A stretch of 37,288 nucleotides of DNA from a virus. A program made the translations under genes and the position numbers. This document shows positions 969 through 5,577 of this stretch, in pieces; position 1 is the stretch's first letter; every line of letters starts with the position of its first letter. The notes below the pieces were generated by a model. That model did no database searches and had not been told where the DNA came from. It saw only the letters and a program-made list of their open reading frames with translations. The stretch lies in UHGV virus genome UHGV-1407012; one strand, given 5' to 3'.

Positions 969-1265
969 TCAGTCATTACTGATAGCGCCATAGCGTGAGC
1001 GGTAATTACGCAGGCGCGGGTCGATATATTCAGGGAAGTGGGTATATGTGGCTTTGCGGAATGGTCGGATTGATGTCTGGTAAATTCGCTCGCGTTCTTC
1101 TTTCTCTGCAAGCCATATACAGTGGCGAAATTCCTTTTCCTCTTTCGTTTCCTGCGGTAGAGACATTATTCGATCGTAGTTTTTTCTGAATTTATCCAGC
1201 ACCTCCGATACGGAATTGCCGGAACAGCGGCGCGGGTCATCCGCACCATACTGAGGCGCTGGCAT
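969..1265 (-). CDS. Hypothetical protein (98 aa)
   Basis: ATG at 1265 with AGGAG RBS 7 nt upstream; tight packing with neighbours. Confidence 0.6.
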   Translation of the reverse strand: MPAPQYGADDPRRCSGNSVSEVLDKFRKNYDRIMSLPQETKEEKEFRHCIWLAEKEERERIYQTSIRPFRKATYTHFPEYIDPRLRNYRSRYGAISND

Positions 1266-1278
1266 GATTTTCTCCTGA

Positions 1279-1758
1279 TTAAATTGCGTGAATAGCGTGA
1301 CGAGGGAAGGGGAGAGTTACTGGTTCCTCGTCTGGGTAGATAGGTTTGTTATGTTTGTGCCACTCGACATGGCATGACTTGCAGAGCCACATCACATCGG
1401 TTGGTTTGCTGTAGTCGCAGTGGTGCGCCTGTGGTTTACATTCTGATCCGCAGCACTCACATTGTGGTGGTCGGATTAGCTTACCGTCGCGCAAAAAATT
1501 ACCCACAATGATGTGGGCTTTTCTTTTCCATGGGTTGCTCTGAATGAACCGCTTTTTGGCTGCGTTACACCGTTCTCTTCCGCGTTCCGATGATTGATAT
1601 TCTCTCCTTGCTGATACTCGATGTGGCAATCCAGCGCGTTCTTTGTCGTATTCAGCCAGGCAAGCCCGGCAAGCGGCAGTTAATCCATCTCTGGATGCTC
1701 TTCTGATTTGAAATTCCCTTTCTTCCTTCTGTTGATGGCATCTTGAGCAGATTTTCAT
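1279..1758 (-). CDS. HNH-family endonuclease with N-terminal Cys-rich (zinc-ribbon-like) segment
   Basis: CxxC...CxxC pairs and C-terminal HHCDY...WLCKSCH...WH motif typical of HNH nucleases; AGGAG RBS. Confidence 0.7.
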   Translation of the reverse strand: MKICSRCHQQKEEREFQIRRASRDGLTAACRACLAEYDKERAGLPHRVSARREYQSSERGRERCNAAKKRFIQSNPWKRKAHIIVGNFLRDGKLIRPPQCECCGSECKPQAHHCDYSKPTDVMWLCKSCHVEWHKHNKPIYPDEEPVTLPFPRHAIHAI

Positions 1759-1767
1759 ATTCAGCTC

Positions 1768-2241
1768 CTAGAACGGAATATCCGAATCGTCGAAGTTCAT
1801 AGGTGGTTCGCTGTGATTCCCCTGCTGCTGAGATTGCTGTCTTTGTTGCTGACCGTTATTTCGCTGAGGTGAAGACTGTTCATTGCCTCCTTGCTTGCCA
1901 CCAAGCATTTGCATGGTTCCACCAACGCCAACGATGACTTCGGTAGTGAACCTATCCTGTCCGCTTTGATCCTGCCATTTTCTTGTCCGCAATTTTCCTT
2001 CAAGATAAACCTCAGAGCCTTTTCGCAGATATTCGCTGGCAATTTCTGCCAGTTTCCCGCTCATTACCACGCGGTGCCACTCCGTCTGCTCCTTTTGCTC
2101 TCCAGTTTGCTTATCACGCCATTGTTCTGACGTAGCAACTGTAAGGTTTGCAAATGCCGTTCCTGATGGTGAATATCTGATTTCTGGATCATGCCCAAGG
2201 CGACCAATAATGATCACCTTATTTACGCCTCTGCTTGCCAT
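1768..2241 (-). CDS. ssb: Single-stranded DNA-binding protein
   Basis: OB-fold SSB signature ([17 protein letters not shown]...), Gln/Gly-rich tail, acidic C-terminus ending DDSDIPF. Confidence 0.9.
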
Positions 2242-2949
2242 TTATGCCGCCTGTTTTAGCTCGTTAACTCTGATGTTCATTACCTGAACGCATTTAGCCT
2301 GCGCATCCTCATTGCCAGCCATTAATTGCCAGTCACGCTGATAACGCTCGATGAGTTTTTTCTTGTCAGTTTCTGTTGACGCATAATCGCTGAAGTCTTT
2401 CAGGATTTGTTCGCAGTCAACCGATGGAGATTTCTGGTTGGTATTTTCTGGTGATGGTTTGTTATCTGATGCTGGTATTGCCCATCCCGGCAGCGATGGA
2501 GGGAGCCAGTAAAATCCTGTTCCATCCTTGAGTTTTGCCCTGTGCCATCCCTGCTTTTTATCGAGAGATGTTTGTGCAAAACCTTCCTCAAGGTTATACA
2601 GATACCGACCGATTCCCCACTGAACGGCAGCGCGCTTCATTGCACCGGAACGACCACCTTTTACGGCTTCTACCTGCGTGTTTTCAGCAGCATCCCATTT
2701 GGTTACCCATTCGGAATCAATCCTGATTGATATGCCGCATTCAACGCCTCCGTTGTTGGGAATATCGCGGTATTCATTGCGCCATCCTGCTTTGCCGCAA
2801 ACATCGTCCAGGCGTTTCATGATTGCCCTGTTCGTGACATAAGCCAGCACCATAGCCCACACCTTTCCATCGCGTGTTTTACCGCTTTGCTGTATTCGCC
2901 ATTCGATATCTTCAGGGCTGAATGGCTCATCGAATTTGTTCAAATCCAT
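2242..2949 (-). CDS. Rad52-like single-strand annealing protein (recombinase)
   Basis: Motif ...MKRAAVQWGIGRYLY... characteristic of Rad52/Sak-type annealing proteins; sits directly upstream of ssb as in phage recombination modules. Confidence 0.7.
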   Translation of the reverse strand: MDLNKFDEPFSPEDIEWRIQQSGKTRDGKVWAMVLAYVTNRAIMKRLDDVCGKAGWRNEYRDIPNNGGVECGISIRIDSEWVTKWDAAENTQVEAVKGGRSGAMKRAAVQWGIGRYLYNLEEGFAQTSLDKKQGWHRAKLKDGTGFYWLPPSLPGWAIPASDNKPSPENTNQKSPSVDCEQILKDFSDYASTETDKKKLIERYQRDWQLMAGNEDAQAKCVQVMNIRVNELKQAA

Positions 2950-3128: not shown

Positions 3129-3207
3129 GAATATCTCCTTCGTTACCGATTAAATCTTTCATCTGACGAATGAATTCTTCGTCTGACCAGTTATCTGTAA
3201 AACTCAT
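3049..3207 (-). CDS. Small acidic hypothetical protein (52 aa, MSFTDNWSDEEFIRQMKDL...)
   Basis: ATGA start/stop overlap with the upstream Kil-like ORF (translational coupling). Confidence 0.3.
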   Translation of the reverse strand: MSFTDNWSDEEFIRQMKDLIGNEGDIHVTCNHSEGEQVTETHVHAESSLVSP

Positions 3208-3356
3208 TTCCTGCGATACCACGGAAGGTTGATAGCTGATTTCATCTCTTTATTTGCTTCAAGCCACATTTTGGAATCACCAATAAATCTGGCTATTACT
3301 GCTTTGTTTTGTGCCGCACGAAGCATCTGGTGATTGATGGCTATTTCATTGCGCAT
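3204..3356 (-). CDS. kil: Kil-like small protein (50 aa)
   Basis: Position immediately after cIII, overlapping its 3' end as in lambda; segment ...AVIARFIGDSKMW... resembles lambda Kil as recalled (from memory, unverified). Confidence 0.4.
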   Translation of the reverse strand: MRNEIAINHQMLRAAQNKAVIARFIGDSKMWLEANKEMKSAINLPWYRRK

Positions 3357-3472
3357 AATAAGACCTCAACTCTTTTCCATCCGTCACGTAATTTACGGGT
3401 GATTCGTTCAAGTAAAGATTCATTTAGTTGGAAGGCACCCATGCGAGCGCCTCCCGCGATTGCGTAAATCAT
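3341..3472 (-). CDS. cIII: cIII-like FtsH (HflB) protease inhibitor (43 aa)
   Basis: Core ...ESLLERITRKLRDGWKR... matches the lambda CIII helix as recalled; AAGGAA RBS; position in the pL operon. Confidence 0.6.
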   Translation of the reverse strand: MIYAIAGGARMGAFQLNESLLERITRKLRDGWKRVEVLLCAMK

Positions 3473-3496: not shown

Positions 3497-4465
3497 TTAG
3501 TAGGTTATTTTTGTTGCGAATACTTCGCCTTTTACGATGGCTGTTATGATATTTTTAGCAATATCTTCTGATGCGCCAACCTTGATAAGGTCAGCAAGTA
3601 TTTTGTTATTTACTTCTTTCCGGTGAGCTTTATCCTTTGCTCTACGCTCTTCTTCGTCCTTGATTCTTTTTTCTTCTGCTATTCTGGCTTGCTCTTTTGC
3701 TTCAGCCTCGCGACGGATTCGTTCAGCCTCCTCCTGTGCTTTTCTGCGTTCTGCTTCAATTGCTGCCTGCTTTTCTCTTTCAGCTCGTTCTGCTGCCTCT
3801 TTTGCTTCGCGCTGTGCTCGTTGCTCGGCTTCAATGCGTTCACGCTCTGCACGTTCCGCTGCGGCCTTAGCTTCTGCTTCTCGCCTTGCTGCTGCTTCAA
3901 TTTCGGCTTTTGCCTTTGCTTCGGCTTCTGCTCTGGCTTTCTCTTCAGCTTCTCTTTTTAATCGTTCTTCATGCTCTCGCTTTTCCTGCTCCGCTTTGAG
4001 TCTTGCCTCTTCTCTTTGGCGGTCAAATTCGCGATCCATCAAAATCGCTATTTCATGGTCAGACTCAATTTGCTTTGCGAGAGCTTCAGCTGCTGCCTTA
4101 GCTTCTTCTTCGGCTTTAATCCGCGCCTGTTCTTCCTCATAATCAGTAAGAGGCTGGCGCGCCTTGGCTTTCAGTTCATCAAGGCGATCACGCACCGTCT
4201 TGCGGTTGGCATCAATTAGCTTTGGAATTTCCTTCAGTTCAGCAACAAGGTCTTTGCCAAGACCATCGAGATATGTTTTCGTCTGTGCAACTTTAAACGC
4301 CAGAGAAGCGATCTCCTTTCTGCCCTTTGCCGTTGTGATATCAGGCACAAAGGACATAACTTCACGTTCAACCTTTTGGAGAATTTCTTCAATCTGGTCA
4401 GCAGACTGAAATACAATCATTGCATTTGCTTTTTCAATAACAACTAAATCTGTTACTTCACTCAT
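3497..4465 (-). CDS. Coiled-coil protein with long Glu/Ala/Arg/Lys low-complexity repeat (322 aa)
   Basis: ATG 4465 with GGAGG RBS (track ORF extends to TTG at 4519); about 150 aa of EAKA/RREAE heptad-like repeats between structured N- and C-terminal regions. Confidence 0.7.
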   Translation of the reverse strand: MSEVTDLVVIEKANAMIVFQSADQIEEILQKVEREVMSFVPDITTAKGRKEIASLAFKVAQTKTYLDGLGKDLVAELKEIPKLIDANRKTVRDRLDELKAKARQPLTDYEEEQARIKAEEEAKAAAEALAKQIESDHEIAILMDREFDRQREEARLKAEQEKREHEERLKREAEEKARAEAEAKAKAEIEAAARREAEAKAAAERAERERIEAEQRAQREAKEAAERAEREKQAAIEAERRKAQEEAERIRREAEAKEQARIAEEKRIKDEEERRAKDKAHRKEVNNKILADLIKVGASEDIAKNIITAIVKGEVFATKITY

Positions 4466-4599
4466 ATATCCTCCATCAAAAAAATCGCCCTCACATTGGA
4501 GGGCAAAGAAGATTTCCAATAATCAGAACAAGTCGGCTCCTGTTTAGTTACGAGCGACATTGCTCCGTGTATTCACTCGTTGGAATGAATACACAGTGC

Positions 4600-4788
4600 T
4601 TATTCGTCATGCATTTCAGGTAATTCTTCGTATTCGACTCCCCATACGAGTTTACACCAAGTGACTCGCTCATATCTTTTACAAAAATCAGACCACATAA
4701 CTTGTGTTCCATCATGGTTTGTTATTACTTCTGTAATATCACCAACACTAACAAAACTGGTATTAGAAGCAGTTATTTTTACTTTCAT
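4600..4788 (-). CDS. Hypothetical protein (62 aa)
   Basis: TAATG overlap with upstream gene stop; AT-rich. Confidence 0.55.
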   Translation of the reverse strand: MKVKITASNTSFVSVGDITEVITNHDGTQVMWSDFCKRYERVTWCKLVWGVEYEELPEMHDE

Positions 4789-5075
4789 TACTTATCCCCA
4801 AGAGCTTTTCTGATTGCTGCGATACCTTTATTAACAGCTCCATACCATTCTGGATATGTTGTCGTTGTTCTATTTTTGGTTTGCTTAAGTAATAACTGAA
4901 GTGCTTCGAGAAGGTCAGGAGCTGCTGCTATCAGTAGCGCATCCTCCCTTTCATTTCTTGTTGCTGCTTCAATGTATGTGTCACCAATCGTCACACCATG
5001 GAACGTAGTCATCATCTCGTTGACGTTTCTAACCGTGTACTTCCATTTACCAGGCGTACCCTTAAACTCTTTCAT
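4788..5075 (-). CDS. Hypothetical protein (about 95 aa)
   Basis: ATG 5075 with GAGGTG RBS (track start 5081 is GTG). Confidence 0.55.
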   Translation of the reverse strand: MKEFKGTPGKWKYTVRNVNEMMTTFHGVTIGDTYIEAATRNEREDALLIAAAPDLLEALQLLLKQTKNRTTTTYPEWYGAVNKGIAAIRKALGDK

Positions 5076-5095
5076 ATCCACCTCTGTTGTTTATG

Positions 5096-5123
5096 CCAAA
5101 AATAAAGGCCGACTATGCGGCCT
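5096..5123 (-). terminator. Rho-independent terminator (minus strand) after the membrane-protein gene
   Basis: AGGCCG-loop-CGGCCT stem followed by a U-tract on the minus-strand transcript. Confidence 0.5.
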
Positions 5124-5127
5124 GAGA

Positions 5128-5577
5128 TTACTTAACCAATGATGCTGCATATTCGATAAGGTAAAGCTTTGGGGCCAGCCAAATTTTTAACCAAGTCATA
5201 TTGGTTACTACACCAATAATAAAAATCCCCCACAGAGTCAAAACTCCAACCAATGGCATGATAAGAAGGTTAATATCTCCTTTGCTATCCCAAACCATTG
5301 TCGGCCTGTATTTGGGATTTCCCCTCTCCCATGAGTATCCTTCATCACCGATTTTACCTGTCTCAACTCTTTGGCACTGCTTCTTCATAAACCAGAAAAC
5401 CAGTGGGATTGTTAGAATGGCTATTAATGTTTTAATCAGACTGTCAACCATATTCCATAGCAGCAACTGATGAACAACATCAGGAATCTGCGCTTGGCTG
5501 AATGAAACAGCCGCGTCTATTCCATTGCTGGCTTTTTGCAGTAGTTCTACGAGAATCTTGTTTGCTTGTTCTTCCAT
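5128..5577 (-). CDS. Inner-membrane protein with two predicted TM helices (149 aa); possible superinfection-exclusion-type moron
   Basis: Hydrophobic segments IKTLIAILTIPLVFWFM and LLIMPLVGVLTLWGIFIIGVV; intrinsic terminators on both sides; position equivalent to sieB-type genes of lambdoid phages (inference). Confidence 0.65.
   Translation of the reverse strand: MEEQANKILVELLQKASNGIDAAVSFSQAQIPDVVHQLLLWNMVDSLIKTLIAILTIPLVFWFMKKQCQRVETGKIGDEGYSWERGNPKYRPTMVWDSKGDINLLIMPLVGVLTLWGIFIIGVVTNMTWLKIWLAPKLYLIEYAASLVK

What the first reader, a model, noticed from the sequence alone, without database searches (positions are those of the whole stretch)
3497..4465. Large coiled-coil protein with ~150-residue Glu/Ala/Arg/Lys low-complexity core in the recombination-proximal early region
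This 322-aa protein has a structured N-terminal region, a long KAEAEAKAKAE / RREAEAK repeat tract and a short C-terminal domain. The repeat makes all six frames open locally, which explains several overlapping track ORFs. Function is unknown.
Basis: seen in the sequence. Interest (0 to 1): 0.4.

Follow-up and report, generated by a model that had tools for sequence, protein, structure and literature searches.

The report
Phage Agt-like long-helix recombination-module protein
This is a real and common early gene of temperate phages, the counterpart of phage phi80 agt and Sf6 gene 33: a small helical head, a 26-32 nm rigid charged helix and a tiny tail domain, nearly always encoded just ahead of the phage recombination genes, wrongly named "TolA" in databases, and still without a known biochemical function.

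Summary
The ORF is real: window 3497-4465, minus strand, 322 aa, GGAGG ribosome-binding site, intrinsic terminator just upstream. Residues 151-285 are 87% Glu/Ala/Arg/Lys.

- The core is compositional bias, not a DNA tandem repeat.
- It has no heptad signal and about 5% bulky hydrophobic residues, so it looks like an ER/K single alpha-helix, not a canonical coiled coil. Five of six frames are nearly stop-free and the sixth has 12 stops.

It is coding. All 80 closest copies are intact, synonymous changes in the central helix (111-285) outnumber non-synonymous ones 5:1, and length variants are in frame.

It is 51% identical over its full length to phi80 Agt, annotated "anti-toxin for Gam", and 98% to Sf6 gp33. 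The family has about 4,900 clusters at 50% identity and no Pfam or NCBIfam model. The PGAP name "TolA" is spurious.

In 50 of 73 diverse loci, recombination genes lie within 2.5 kb downstream on the same strand. The same allele sits with four different annealing-protein families, usually together with Abc2.

Best reading: a non-enzymatic two-ended adaptor or spacer in the anti-nuclease arm of the recombination module. The mechanism is inferred. Verdict: new member of a named but barely characterised family; moderate-low interest.

The parts
3497..4465 (-). Complete CDS (322 codons plus stop) of the Agt-like protein, the orthologue of Sf6 gene 33 and phi80 agt
   Evidence: ORF and translation. 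PHROG 1376 matched over the full length, E 2e-109. 98% identical to Sf6 gp33. 51% identical to phi80 Agt over all 322 aa.
4136..4465 (-). N-terminal conserved domain (aa 1-110). Motif FVPDxSTAKGRKEIASxAxKVAxSKTYLDGxGK...PKxIDAxRK..RD.LD...R.PL..WE. Predicted short helices 12-20, 22-38 and 46-76 packing on the start of the long helix.
   Evidence: Invariant and near-invariant columns in 65 diverse homologues. AlphaFold2 pLDDT 79-91 over aa 11-70 and 81-110, 75 for aa 71-80 and 56 for aa 1-10. A 118-aa query finds 4,917 clusters at 50% identity, always at the N-terminus.
3611..4135 (-). Central uninterrupted helix (aa 111-285, about 26 nm; the predicted continuous helix 81-295 is about 32 nm)
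   Evidence: AlphaFold2 gives a single helix 81-295, with pLDDT above 90 for aa 91-220, falling to 72-88 towards aa 295. Pro+Gly is below 1% and the length is conserved (median 175 aa, interquartile range 153-193) in 113 representatives.
3611..4015 (-). Extreme Glu/Ala/Arg/Lys core (aa 151-285), candidate ER/K single alpha-helix. This stretch generates the spurious overlapping ORFs.
   Evidence: E30/A26/R19/K12% and sense-strand T 6%. No heptad periodicity and a high i/i+4 opposite-charge score. Stops per frame 0, 1, 1, 2, 3, 12. In-frame deletions of 13-77 aa and an 11-aa duplication map within aa 120-240, mostly in this core.
3500..3610 (-). C-terminal mini-domain (aa 286-322). The family consensus starts just upstream, in the end of the helix: READxxHxxxINxxAxxxLxxxGxxxxxAKxxxxAIAxGxIxxxxIxY.
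   Evidence: Conserved across the family; H281 is invariant and the terminal Tyr nearly so. Present in phi80 Agt. Only sub-threshold hints to HhH, UBA and RuvA domain III. AlphaFold2 pLDDT 54-73.
4470..4474 (-). Ribosome-binding site GGAGG, 4 nt before the ATG
   Evidence: Read directly from the sequence.
4475..4506 (-). Intrinsic terminator (8-bp stem including GCCCTC/GAGGGC, then T7) immediately upstream of the gene. It corresponds to the site annotated tL2A in Sf6.
   Evidence: Terminator scan. Sf6 annotates 'terminator tL2A' at the equivalent position.
3341..3472 (-). cIII, the next gene downstream (context)
   Evidence: Pfam Lambda_CIII, E 4e-15.
3204..3356 (-). kil (context)
   Evidence: Pfam Lambda_Kil, E 6e-19.
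2242..2949 (-). Rad52/22-family single-strand annealing protein, 548 nt downstream of the gene (context: recombination module)
   Evidence: Pfam Rad52_Rad22, E 7e-26. PHROG 1097.
1768..2241 (-). Phage SSB (context)
   Evidence: Pfam SSB, E 2e-38.
969..1265 (-). Abc2 anti-RecBCD protein (context: candidate functional partner)
   Evidence: Pfam Anti-RecBCD_p2, E 3.5e-61. Co-occurs with this allele in 70 of 78 close loci.

Best explanation
The gene encodes an Agt-family protein, the orthologue of phi80 Agt/Mog, Sf6 gp33 and D3 Orf53.

When it is made: it is a delayed-early product of the N-antiterminated leftward operon, expressed together with the phage recombination genes.

What it looks like: it has no enzyme-like domain. 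A roughly 110-residue helical N-terminal domain with many invariant Lys/Arg residues is joined to a roughly 40-residue helical C-terminal mini-domain by one uninterrupted, highly charged alpha-helix of about 175-215 residues (26-32 nm). That helix has the sequence features of an ER/K single alpha-helix.

How I think it works (inferred): it is a two-ended adaptor or spacer. Its two end domains bind partners that do not depend on which annealing protein the phage carries: DNA ends, a host end-processing complex such as RecBCD or SbcCD, or the phage's anti-nuclease protein. It thereby tempers or directs the anti-nuclease arm of the recombination module. In phi80 this appears as neutralising the toxicity of GamL. 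In this phage the equivalent partner would be Abc2-modified RecBCD. It is accessory, not part of the annealing/exonuclease core.

Shown here: coding status, architecture, orthology and gene-neighbourhood association.
Taken from a database annotation: the antidote role in phi80.
Inferred: the single-helix state, the adaptor mechanism and the identity of the partners.
For: Coding and under purifying selection:
- 80 of 80 close copies are intact. Synonymous to non-synonymous differences across the central helix (111-285) are 373:74. Length variants are in frame. The gene is present in 530 of 5,426 complete E. coli genomes.

Orthology:
- 51% identity to phi80 Agt across the N-domain, helix and C-domain, at the identical length of 322 aa.
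- The phi80 record annotates agt as 'anti-toxin for Gam; Mog (modifier of Gam)' and the adjacent gamL as 'toxic without Mog'. Phage HF4s annotators made the same link.

Architecture:
- AlphaFold2 mean pLDDT is 84.7, with one helix spanning 81-295.
- In the core, charged residues are about 60%, bulky hydrophobics about 5%, there is no 3.5-residue periodicity, and the i/i+4 opposite-charge score is high.
- The only, weak, PDB sequence hits are proteins with long charged helices: zuotin, the myosin VI single-helix region and drebrin.
- Deletion lengths of 13, 16, 18, 20, 22, 26, 32, 47 and 77 aa ignore heptad phase.
- The three-part plan and a central length of median 175 aa (interquartile range 153-193), with Pro+Gly below 1%, are conserved in 113 mutually divergent representatives.

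Link to recombination:
- In 73 species-level loci from Alpha-, Beta- and Gammaproteobacteria, 50 have an annealing protein, YqaJ exonuclease or SSB within 2.5 kb downstream on the same strand. Of these, 42 have an annealing protein and 25 are directly adjacent. Only 9 of 67 have one upstream. Others carry DUF3799 or AAA_24 genes.
- D3 orf53 abuts erf-exo. phi80 agt abuts gamL-recT-exo.

The partner is not the annealing protein:
- The same 98-99% identical allele sits with Rad52-like (32 loci), ERF (32), Sak4/AAA_24 (8) and RecT (6) genes. Abc2 is present in 70 of 78 loci.

Accessory, not core:
- D3 erf+exo placed in lambda recombine as well as Red, without orf53 (PMC3945230).
- Natural knock-outs exist in CUS-3 and phiv205-1.
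Against: - No experiment exists on this protein. The phi80 paper (PMC3510586) could not be read, so the antidote claim rests on GenBank notes only.
- This phage has no GamL, so the phi80 role cannot transfer literally. Most diverse family members (the D3-like agt-erf-exo-ssb layout) have no recognisable Gam or Abc2 nearby.
- A recent systematic survey of lambdoid recombination modules does not list this protein as a module component (PMC12315714).
- Here the gene is separated from the annealing-protein gene by cIII, kil and two small ORFs, and it is a mosaic, optional gene. Adjacency could partly reflect shared early-operon layout.
- Monomeric single helix versus dimeric coiled coil cannot be decided by sequence. 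Central regions of other family members are more hydrophobic (median 17% bulky residues).
- No structural or profile match identifies what either end domain binds.
Confidence: 0.45

Rival explanations
1. The protein is itself the end-protecting or anti-nuclease factor, a functional analogue of Mu Gam or lambda Gam. Its basic N-domain would bind dsDNA ends or block a host nuclease directly, rather than modulate another phage protein.
For: - It occupies the slot just upstream of the annealing-protein gene. In Firmicutes phages that slot is filled alternatively by Mu-Gam homologues, DUF2483, DUF1351 or Gp157 (PMC8093625).
- Many D3-like modules (agt-erf-exo-ssb) have no other recognisable anti-nuclease gene.
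- Many invariant Lys/Arg residues lie in the N-domain.
- Weak HhH-like hints in the C-terminal mini-domain.
Against: - In E. coli relatives it co-occurs with Abc2 in 70 of 78 loci, and in phi80 with GamL, which would be redundant.
- The N-domain has net charge -2 and the whole protein -8.
- No similarity to Gam, Ku or any DNA-binding fold.
- HhH hits are far below threshold.
Confidence: 0.15
2. It is an accessory 'moron'-type early gene unrelated to recombination, for example host takeover, exclusion of other phages, or a cell-division or envelope effect like its neighbour kil. Its position next to recombination genes would only reflect conserved early-operon order.
For: - It is optional and mosaic. 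Only about 35 of 394 related phage records carry this allele, and about 10% of E. coli genomes do.
- Here it abuts cIII and kil rather than the annealing-protein gene, in the region where lambda carries ea10, ral and sieB (own knowledge).
- Inactivated copies occur in prophages.
- A recombination-module survey ignores it.
Against: - Direct adjacency (100 nt or less) to an annealing protein, exonuclease or SSB in 25 of 73 very diverse loci across three proteobacterial classes, with strong polarity (50 downstream against 9 upstream), is hard to explain by synteny alone.
- phi80 authors tie it functionally to GamL.
- No hit to any PADLOC defence model.
- No transmembrane segment or signal peptide-like segment.
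Confidence: 0.2
3. It is a homodimeric coiled-coil scaffold. The biological role would be the same as in the best explanation, but the rod would be a two-stranded Ala-rich coiled coil rather than a single helix.
For: - Ala is 26% of the core and shows a weak 3.67-residue (hendecad-like) periodicity.
- Residues 126-150 and the central regions of other family members carry more hydrophobic residues.
- PGAP labels some copies 'coiled-coil domain-containing protein'.
Against: - No 3.5- or 7-residue periodicity of hydrophobic residues. About 5% bulky hydrophobics and about 60% charged residues in 151-285.
- Natural in-frame deletions do not respect heptads.
- Compositional matches are to known single-alpha-helix proteins.
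Confidence: 0.15
4. It is a TolA-like cell-envelope protein, as named by NCBI PGAP and RAST in most records.
For: The names 'cell envelope biogenesis protein TolA', 'TolA protein' and 'colicin import membrane protein' appear in many records. The composition resembles TolA domain II.
Against: - TIGR02794 tolA_full scores 9.2 bits against a cut-off of 59.45. No Pfam hit.
- Maximum 19-residue hydropathy is 1.07, so there is no membrane anchor.
- The conserved N- and C-domains are unrelated to TolA domains I and III. The similarity is confined to the low-complexity tract.
Confidence: 0.01
5. The tract is non-coding low-complexity DNA, and the ORF is an artefact of stop-poor composition.
For: Five of six frames are nearly stop-free across the core.
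Against: - The ORF extends 330 nt and 111 nt beyond the core into conserved, ordinary-composition domains.
- There is a ribosome-binding site.
- Purifying selection acts on the central helix, and indels are in frame.
- Thousands of homologues share the same architecture.
Confidence: 0.01

Closest known systems
Phage phi80 (Lula) Agt / Mog, 'anti-toxin for Gam' (JX871397, PHI80_40)
   Same: Full-length homologue: 51% identity, 66% positives, identical length of 322 aa, same N-domain motifs, charged helix and C-terminal ...I-x-Y domain. Both are early-left-operon genes transcribed ahead of the recombination genes.
   Different: In phi80 it directly abuts gamL-recT-exo. Here it is followed by cIII-kil-two small ORFs-Rad52-like annealing protein-SSB-...-Abc2, and there is no GamL. 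The antidote function is known to me only from the GenBank notes.
Sf6 gene 33, Pseudomonas phage D3 Orf53, PHROG 1376 (unknown function)
   Same: Sf6 gp33 is 98% identical, at the same locus with the same upstream terminator tL2A. D3 Orf53 shares the N-domain (54% identity over aa 5-109) and the overall architecture, and lies directly upstream of erf-exo.
   Different: None of substance for Sf6. D3-type members are about 354 aa and have an extra, more hydrophobic segment after the N-domain.
DUF1351 (PF07083) of Firmicutes and Bacteroides phages
   Same: - Similar size (about 280-350 aa).
- Directly adjacent to Erf, RecT, Bet-like or Sak4 annealing-protein genes (PMC8093625); the Bacteroides B40-8 copy has no annotated annealing-protein gene next to it.
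- A helical N-terminal part with the same order of predicted helices: 26-41, 50-76 and 83-130, against 22-38, 46-76 and 81 onward.
- One UniRef cluster of this family is even labelled DUF1351.
   Different: - No Pfam match in 65 members, even at E up to 1 or 10.
- hhalign probability is 0.8-13%.
- Foldseek searches with either model do not retrieve the other family.
- DUF1351 has a mixed alpha/beta C-terminal part and no long ER/K helix.
I treat it as a positional analogue; homology is unproven.
ER/K single alpha-helix domains (myosin VI/X, caldesmon, zuotin, drebrin)
   Same: Composition rich in E/R/K (plus Ala); charge pairs at i/i+4; no hydrophobic seam; a long uninterrupted helix. These proteins give the only, weak, PDB sequence matches.
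   Different: This is a shared physical type, not homology. It is unusually Ala-rich (26%). The monomeric state is untested. Such domains are rarely described in phage proteins (own knowledge).
TolA domain II
   Same: An Ala/Glu/Lys-rich helical tract, which is the source of the database name.
   Different: No membrane anchor, no TolA domain III, and a score far below the TIGR02794 cut-off. Not a TolA.
P22 Arf and Abc1 (accessory recombination functions)
   Same: Non-essential genes of the same operon that assist recombination, with unknown mechanism (PMC12315714).
   Different: Small unrelated proteins. No sequence similarity was tested or expected.

Membership tests
Agt / Sf6 gp33 / D3 Orf53 family (PHROG 1376) | Conserved N-terminal domain with the motif FVPDxSTAKGRKEIAS...SKTYLDGxGK...PKxIDAxRK...RxPLxxWE | tested here: met
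   All invariant columns (R49, K63, G70, K78, E110) are present. PHROG 1376 E 2e-109. The N-domain query retrieves 4,917 representative clusters.
Agt / Sf6 gp33 / D3 Orf53 family (PHROG 1376) | Long Pro/Gly-free charged central helix of about 150-190 residues | tested here: met
   175 residues here against a family median of 175 (interquartile range 153-193). AlphaFold2 gives a single helix 81-295.
Agt / Sf6 gp33 / D3 Orf53 family (PHROG 1376) | C-terminal mini-domain READxxH...AKxxxxAIAxGxI....IxY | tested here: met
   H281 and Y322 are conserved. It aligns with phi80 Agt to the last residue.
Agt / Sf6 gp33 / D3 Orf53 family (PHROG 1376) | Encoded on the same strand upstream of a phage recombination module | tested here: met
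   A Rad52-like annealing protein lies 548 nt downstream, then SSB and Abc2. The same is true for 50 of 73 diverse loci.
Agt / Sf6 gp33 / D3 Orf53 family (PHROG 1376) | Neutralises the toxicity of the adjacent GamL (the only function reported, for phi80) | not testable with these tools
   Known only from GenBank notes. No GamL homologue lies downstream here: the downstream ORFs of at least 90 aa are the Rad52-like protein, SSB, an unassigned 159-aa ORF, Abc2 and Ead/Ea22. The paper is not held.
TolA (TIGR02794 / PGAP name) | N-terminal transmembrane anchor | tested here: not met
   Maximum Kyte-Doolittle 19-residue hydropathy is 1.07, against a threshold of about 1.6.
TolA (TIGR02794 / PGAP name) | Match to the full-length TolA model, including C-terminal domain III | tested here: not met
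   9.2 bits against a cut-off of 59.45, and the alignment is confined to the low-complexity tract. No Pfam TolA-related hit.
DUF1351 (PF07083) | Significant match to the PF07083 model | tested here: not met
   No hit for the query or for 64 diverse family members at E up to 1, nor for 5 members at E up to 10.
DUF1351 (PF07083) | Profile-profile or structural similarity to bona fide DUF1351 proteins | tested here: inconclusive
   hhalign probability 0.8% for full-length profiles and 13.5% for N-terminal-only profiles. Helix order is similar in the AlphaFold2 models, but there are no reciprocal Foldseek hits in BFVD.
DUF1351 (PF07083) | Gene adjacent to a phage annealing-protein gene | tested here: met
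   for DUF1351 (the B40-8 copy has no annotated annealing-protein neighbour); for this family.
Canonical coiled coil | Heptad (3.5-residue) periodicity of hydrophobic residues forming a seam | tested here: not met
   Spectral power at period 3.5 is about 0 for LIVMFYW in 111-285. Bulky hydrophobics are about 5%. Natural deletions are not multiples of 7.
ER/K single alpha-helix | High E/R/K content with dense i/i+4 (i/i+3) opposite-charge pairs and no hydrophobic seam | tested here: met
   Charged fraction 0.5-0.7 and charge-pair score 0.25-0.61 across 151-280, against 0.17 or less in aa 1-110.
ER/K single alpha-helix | Monomeric, stable isolated helix in solution | not testable with these tools
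   Needs circular dichroism, ultracentrifugation or SAXS. AlphaFold2 gives a straight single helix, but only as a monomer prediction.

The most novel reading that the evidence does not exclude
Agt-like proteins may be an unrecognised, near-universal extra component of the annealing-protein recombination modules of proteobacterial temperate phages, and the functional counterpart of DUF1351 in Firmicutes phages. In this reading they are a 25-30 nm ER/K 'ruler' whose two end domains bridge a host end-processing machine (RecBCD, SbcCD or the replisome) and DNA or a phage anti-nuclease. The ruler would set how the host nuclease is disarmed without killing the cell. That would be a mechanistically new class of recombination or anti-nuclease modulator, and a rare functional single alpha-helix spacer in a phage protein.
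Probability: 0.25. Interest if true: 0.6.

Novelty: new member of a known kind. Interest (0 to 1): 0.35.

Why it matters
- The family is very large: about 4,900 clusters at 50% identity, and about 10% of complete E. coli genomes carry this allele. It has no Pfam or NCBIfam model and is systematically misnamed 'TolA'. Correcting this removes a recurrent annotation error.
- Its strong, polar association with four unrelated annealing-protein families points to an overlooked accessory function in phage recombination or RecBCD evasion. That process underlies recombineering tools, phage mosaicism and triggering of host defences.
- If the central tract is a true single alpha-helix 'ruler', natural in-frame length variants (245-333 aa) already provide an allelic series for testing it.
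- As it stands, this window holds one more ordinary copy of a known but uncharacterised phage gene.

Tried and rejected
- **Curated family searches.** Pfam, NCBIfam and PADLOC scans of the whole protein, its N- and C-terminal parts and 65 homologues gave no family. Weak hits (curli synthesis inhibitor, TraG, SMC, LmuB, Baculo_PEP_C, DUF5856) are compositional or sub-threshold.
- **PDB sequence searches.** The single sequence, the family profile and the C-terminal profile gave nothing significant.
- **Structure searches.** Foldseek of the AlphaFold2 model against PDB returned only generic helical bundles at E of 0.47 or worse. Against BFVD it returned only members of its own family.
- **DUF1351 homology.** I tested this four ways: Pfam scans, hhalign on full-length profiles, hhalign on N-terminal profiles, and an AlphaFold2 model of a DUF1351 protein searched against BFVD. 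None showed homology, so I report it as a positional analogue only.
- **My first neighbourhood profiles.** The iterated RecT profile drifted and absorbed ERF and Rad52 members. I therefore pooled them as 'annealing protein' and checked the types with Pfam.
- **phi80 genome paper.** PMC3510586 is not held. Literature searches for Agt and GamL found no further functional data.
- **First IMG/VR scan.** It returned only near-identical copies. These were useful for selection and module-swapping analysis but not for diversity, so I used the genome-contig scan with a distant lead sequence instead.
- **Rejected readings.** TolA, non-coding repeat and true DNA tandem repeat are all rejected.
Full report
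**1. The observation**

An ORF runs from the ATG at 4463-4465 to the stop at 3497-3499 on the minus strand and encodes 322 aa. GGAGG lies 4 nt upstream of the ATG. An intrinsic terminator lies immediately before that: an 8-bp stem including GCCCTC/GAGGGC followed by T7, at 4475-4506. It matches the site annotated tL2A in phage Sf6.

Composition is three-part:
- Residues 1-110 are ordinary.
- Residues 151-285 are E 30%, A 26%, R 19% and K 12%.
- Residues 286-322 are ordinary.

The sense strand of the core has 6% T. Every stop codon needs both T and A, so stops are rare on both strands. In the 405-nt core the six frames carry 0, 1, 1, 2, 3 and 12 stops, against 5.8 expected. This explains the overlapping ORFs of 57-160 aa listed.

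The tract is not a DNA tandem repeat. Tandem Repeats Finder reports only a weak 6-bp period at 63% matches.

**2. It is a gene**

- All 80 closest IMG/VR copies are intact at 322 aa, with 72 distinct nucleotide alleles. Codon differences from the window copy are mostly synonymous across the central helix, residues 111-285 (373 synonymous, 74 non-synonymous), and in the N-domain (474 to 156).
- Alleles that are 98% identical but 245-333 aa long differ by in-frame deletions of 13-77 residues, or by an 11-residue duplication, all within residues 120-240 of the central helix. Residues 1-120 and 238-322 stay constant.
- Homologues at 75-79% identity in Enterobacter, Citrobacter, Cronobacter and Salmonella keep exactly 322 aa.
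- Two broken copies were found. CUS-3 has a +1 T at codon 113 and phiv205-1 has Q30*. Neither lesion is in the low-complexity core. They explain the split PHROGs 17211 and 21365 and suggest the gene is dispensable in prophages.
- The allele occurs in 530 of 5,426 complete E. coli genomes.

**3. Where the window comes from and what surrounds the gene**

The window is a P22-like (Lederbergvirus) genome related to Sf6, CUS-3 and IME10. Downstream in the leftward operon lie, in order:
- cIII and kil
- two small HK97 gp42/42.1-like ORFs
- a Rad52/22-family annealing protein
- SSB
- a 159-aa ORF
- Abc2, the anti-RecBCD protein.

**4. Identity**

- The protein is 98% identical to Sf6 gene 33.
- It is 51% identical over its whole length to phi80 Agt, which is also 322 aa. 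The phi80 record annotates agt as 'anti-toxin for Gam; Mog (modifier of Gam)'. It annotates the next gene, gamL, as 'host RecBCD/SbcCD enzymes inhibitor; toxic without Mog'. recT and exo follow.
- Phage HF4s annotators made the same link.
- D3 Orf53 shares the N-domain and sits directly upstream of erf-exo.

There is no Pfam, NCBIfam or PADLOC model. PHROG 1376 is listed as 'unknown function'.

The widespread names 'cell envelope biogenesis protein TolA' and 'colicin import membrane protein' are artefacts of composition:
- TIGR02794 scores 9.2 bits against a cut-off of 59.45.
- There is no hydrophobic segment.

**5. The family**

The first 118 residues alone retrieve 4,917 representatives at 50% identity with E of 1e-3 or better, and 3,359 at 1e-10. 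The match is always at the protein's N-terminus, and lengths are about 280-430 aa.

Alignments show a conserved N-domain motif and a conserved C-terminal mini-domain ending in I-x-Y. In 113 representatives that have both end domains:
- the intervening region has a median of 175 aa (interquartile range 153-193);
- it is 64% E/A/R/K;
- Pro+Gly is below 1%.

So the architecture and the length of the rod are conserved while its sequence is not.

Hosts are mainly Gamma-, Beta- and Alphaproteobacteria and their temperate phages.

**6. Structure**

AlphaFold2 with a 37-sequence alignment gives mean pLDDT 84.7. It predicts helices 12-20, 22-38 and 46-76, one continuous helix 81-295 (about 32 nm), and helix 300-311.

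Foldseek finds no informative match:
- PDB gives generic helical bundles at E of 0.47 or worse.
- BFVD gives only family members.

The core fits an ER/K single alpha-helix better than a canonical coiled coil:
- It has about 5% bulky hydrophobics and 50-70% charged residues.
- It has a high density of i/i+4 opposite-charge pairs.
- Hydrophobic residues show no 3.5- or 7-residue periodicity.
- Natural deletions ignore heptad phase.
- The only weak PDB sequence hits are zuotin, the myosin VI single-helix region and drebrin.

Oligomeric state cannot be decided computationally here. Ala shows a weak 3.67-residue period, and other family members are more hydrophobic.

The C-terminal mini-domain gives only sub-threshold hints to HhH, UBA and RuvA domain III.

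**7. Association with recombination**

I examined 80 species-level genome loci.
- The ORF is intact in 78 of them.
- Of the 73 loci with at least 2.5 kb of downstream sequence, 50 carry an annealing protein, a YqaJ exonuclease or SSB on the same strand within 2.5 kb downstream. Of these, 42 carry an annealing protein and 25 are directly adjacent.
- Only 9 of 67 carry one upstream.
- Several of the remaining loci carry DUF3799 nuclease or AAA_24 (Sak4-like) genes, which my profiles did not cover.

Among the 78 near-identical copies with enough flank, all have an annealing protein downstream, but of four different families:

| Annealing-protein family | Loci |
|---|---|
| Rad52-like | 32 |
| ERF | 32 |
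| Sak4/AAA_24 | 8 |
| RecT | 6 |

Abc2 is present in 70 of the 78. So the protein does not need a particular annealing protein. Its partner is more likely constant: DNA, a host machine, or the anti-RecBCD function.

It is accessory rather than core. D3 erf+exo placed in lambda recombine as efficiently as Red without orf53 (PMC3945230). A recent survey of lambdoid recombination modules does not mention this protein (PMC12315714).

**8. Comparison with DUF1351**

In Firmicutes phages the gene next to erf, sak4 or recT is often Mu-gam, DUF2483, DUF1351 or gp157, which the authors took to imply analogous functions (PMC8093625). I confirmed DUF1351 next to an annealing-protein gene in five phages; the sixth checked, Bacteroides phage B40-8, has no annotated annealing-protein gene beside it.

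| Feature | Result |
|---|---|
| Size and N-terminal helix order | Resemble the Agt family |
| UniRef naming | One cluster of this family is labelled DUF1351 |
| Pfam | No match |
| hhalign | Probability 0.8-13% |
| Reciprocal Foldseek searches | No cross-hits |

I therefore call DUF1351 a positional analogue and leave homology unproven.

**9. Mechanism**

My best-supported reading, at confidence about 0.45, is a non-enzymatic two-ended adaptor or spacer. It is made with the recombination genes under N antitermination. Its two end domains, held 26-32 nm apart by a stiff charged helix, would engage partners that do not depend on the annealing protein, and would modulate the anti-nuclease arm of the module. 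In phi80 this appears as neutralising GamL toxicity. Here the likely counterpart is Abc2-modified RecBCD.

- Shown here: gene status, architecture, orthology and neighbourhood statistics.
- Taken from annotation: the phi80 antidote role.
- Inferred: the single-helix state, the partners and the adaptor mechanism.

Rival readings, with my confidence in each:
- a direct end-protection or anti-nuclease role (0.15);
- an unrelated accessory early gene (0.2);
- a dimeric coiled-coil version of the same role (0.15);
- TolA (0.01) and non-coding DNA (0.01), both effectively excluded.

**10. Verdict**

This is an ordinary extra copy of a named but essentially uncharacterised phage gene family.
- Novelty: new member of a known kind.
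- Interest: 0.35. This reflects the size of the family, the pervasive misannotation, and the untested possibility of a new type of recombination or anti-nuclease modulator built on a single-helix ruler.

Noticed in passing
window 4475-4506 (- strand) and 5106-5123 (- strand): There are two intrinsic-terminator-like hairpins in the leftward operon. One lies directly in front of the gene's ribosome-binding site and matches the site annotated tL2A in Sf6. The other follows the 149-aa membrane-protein ORF at 5128-5577. Expression of the gene should therefore depend on N antitermination.
   Followed up: partly
L177 (phage CUS-3) 741-1710; L176 (phiv205-1) 301-1269: Two natural knock-outs of the gene were found. 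CUS-3 has a single T insertion at codon 113, exactly at the junction between the N-domain and the helix, which splits the gene into 116-aa and 214-aa ORFs. phiv205-1 has a Q30 stop. These explain the split PHROGs 17211 and 21365 and the 116-aa BFVD entry A5VWA2.
   Followed up: yes
homologues P0003-P0020 and P0099-P0114 (alignment A8): A natural allelic series of helix lengths (245, 275, 290, 296, 300, 302, 304, 306, 309, 322 and 333 aa) exists among proteins about 98% identical elsewhere. The 245-aa allele recurs in many E. coli and Salmonella contigs. Yet 322 aa is kept exactly from E. coli to Cronobacter, and also in phi80 Agt at 51% identity.
   Followed up: partly
window 3500-3610 (aa 286-322): Among close alleles, the C-terminal mini-domain shows more non-synonymous than synonymous codon differences (81 to 26), the opposite of the N-domain and the central helix. 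Part of this is the I302V polymorphism shared by most alleles. It was not corrected for shared ancestry.
   Followed up: no
L053 7344-7655, and 4 other IMG/VR loci with the same 103-aa cluster: In copies of this locus that carry RecT instead of ERF or Rad52 and lack Abc2, a 103-aa very acidic ORF (MMILTLKDEREISQ...) sits immediately upstream of recT, and a Sipho_Gp157 gene follows it. The acidic ORF could be a Gam-like DNA mimic. It has no Pfam hit.
   Followed up: partly
window 1279-1758 (- strand): A 159-aa ORF lies between SSB and Abc2. RefSeq names it 'endonuclease' in Sf6 (gp26), but it has no Pfam hit here. It is present in 14 of the close loci.
   Followed up: no
window 4788-5081 and 5128-5577 (- strand): Two ORFs lie upstream, between N and the terminator. 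One is 97 aa (PHROG 1273, unknown function). The other is 149 aa with predicted membrane helices (PHROG 3054, unknown function; called 'TM helix-containing protein' in HF4s). Neither hits PADLOC.
   Followed up: partly
L090, L106, L122, L130, L138, L145 (genome contigs): Family members appear on metagenome-assembled contigs labelled Coriobacteriia, Actinomycetes, Aeromicrobium, Pirellulaceae, Isosphaeraceae and Opitutales. One phage record is a 'Leptolyngbya phage'. Some are 50-68% identical to Pseudomonas or enterobacterial versions, which suggests binning contamination rather than a true host range.
   Followed up: no
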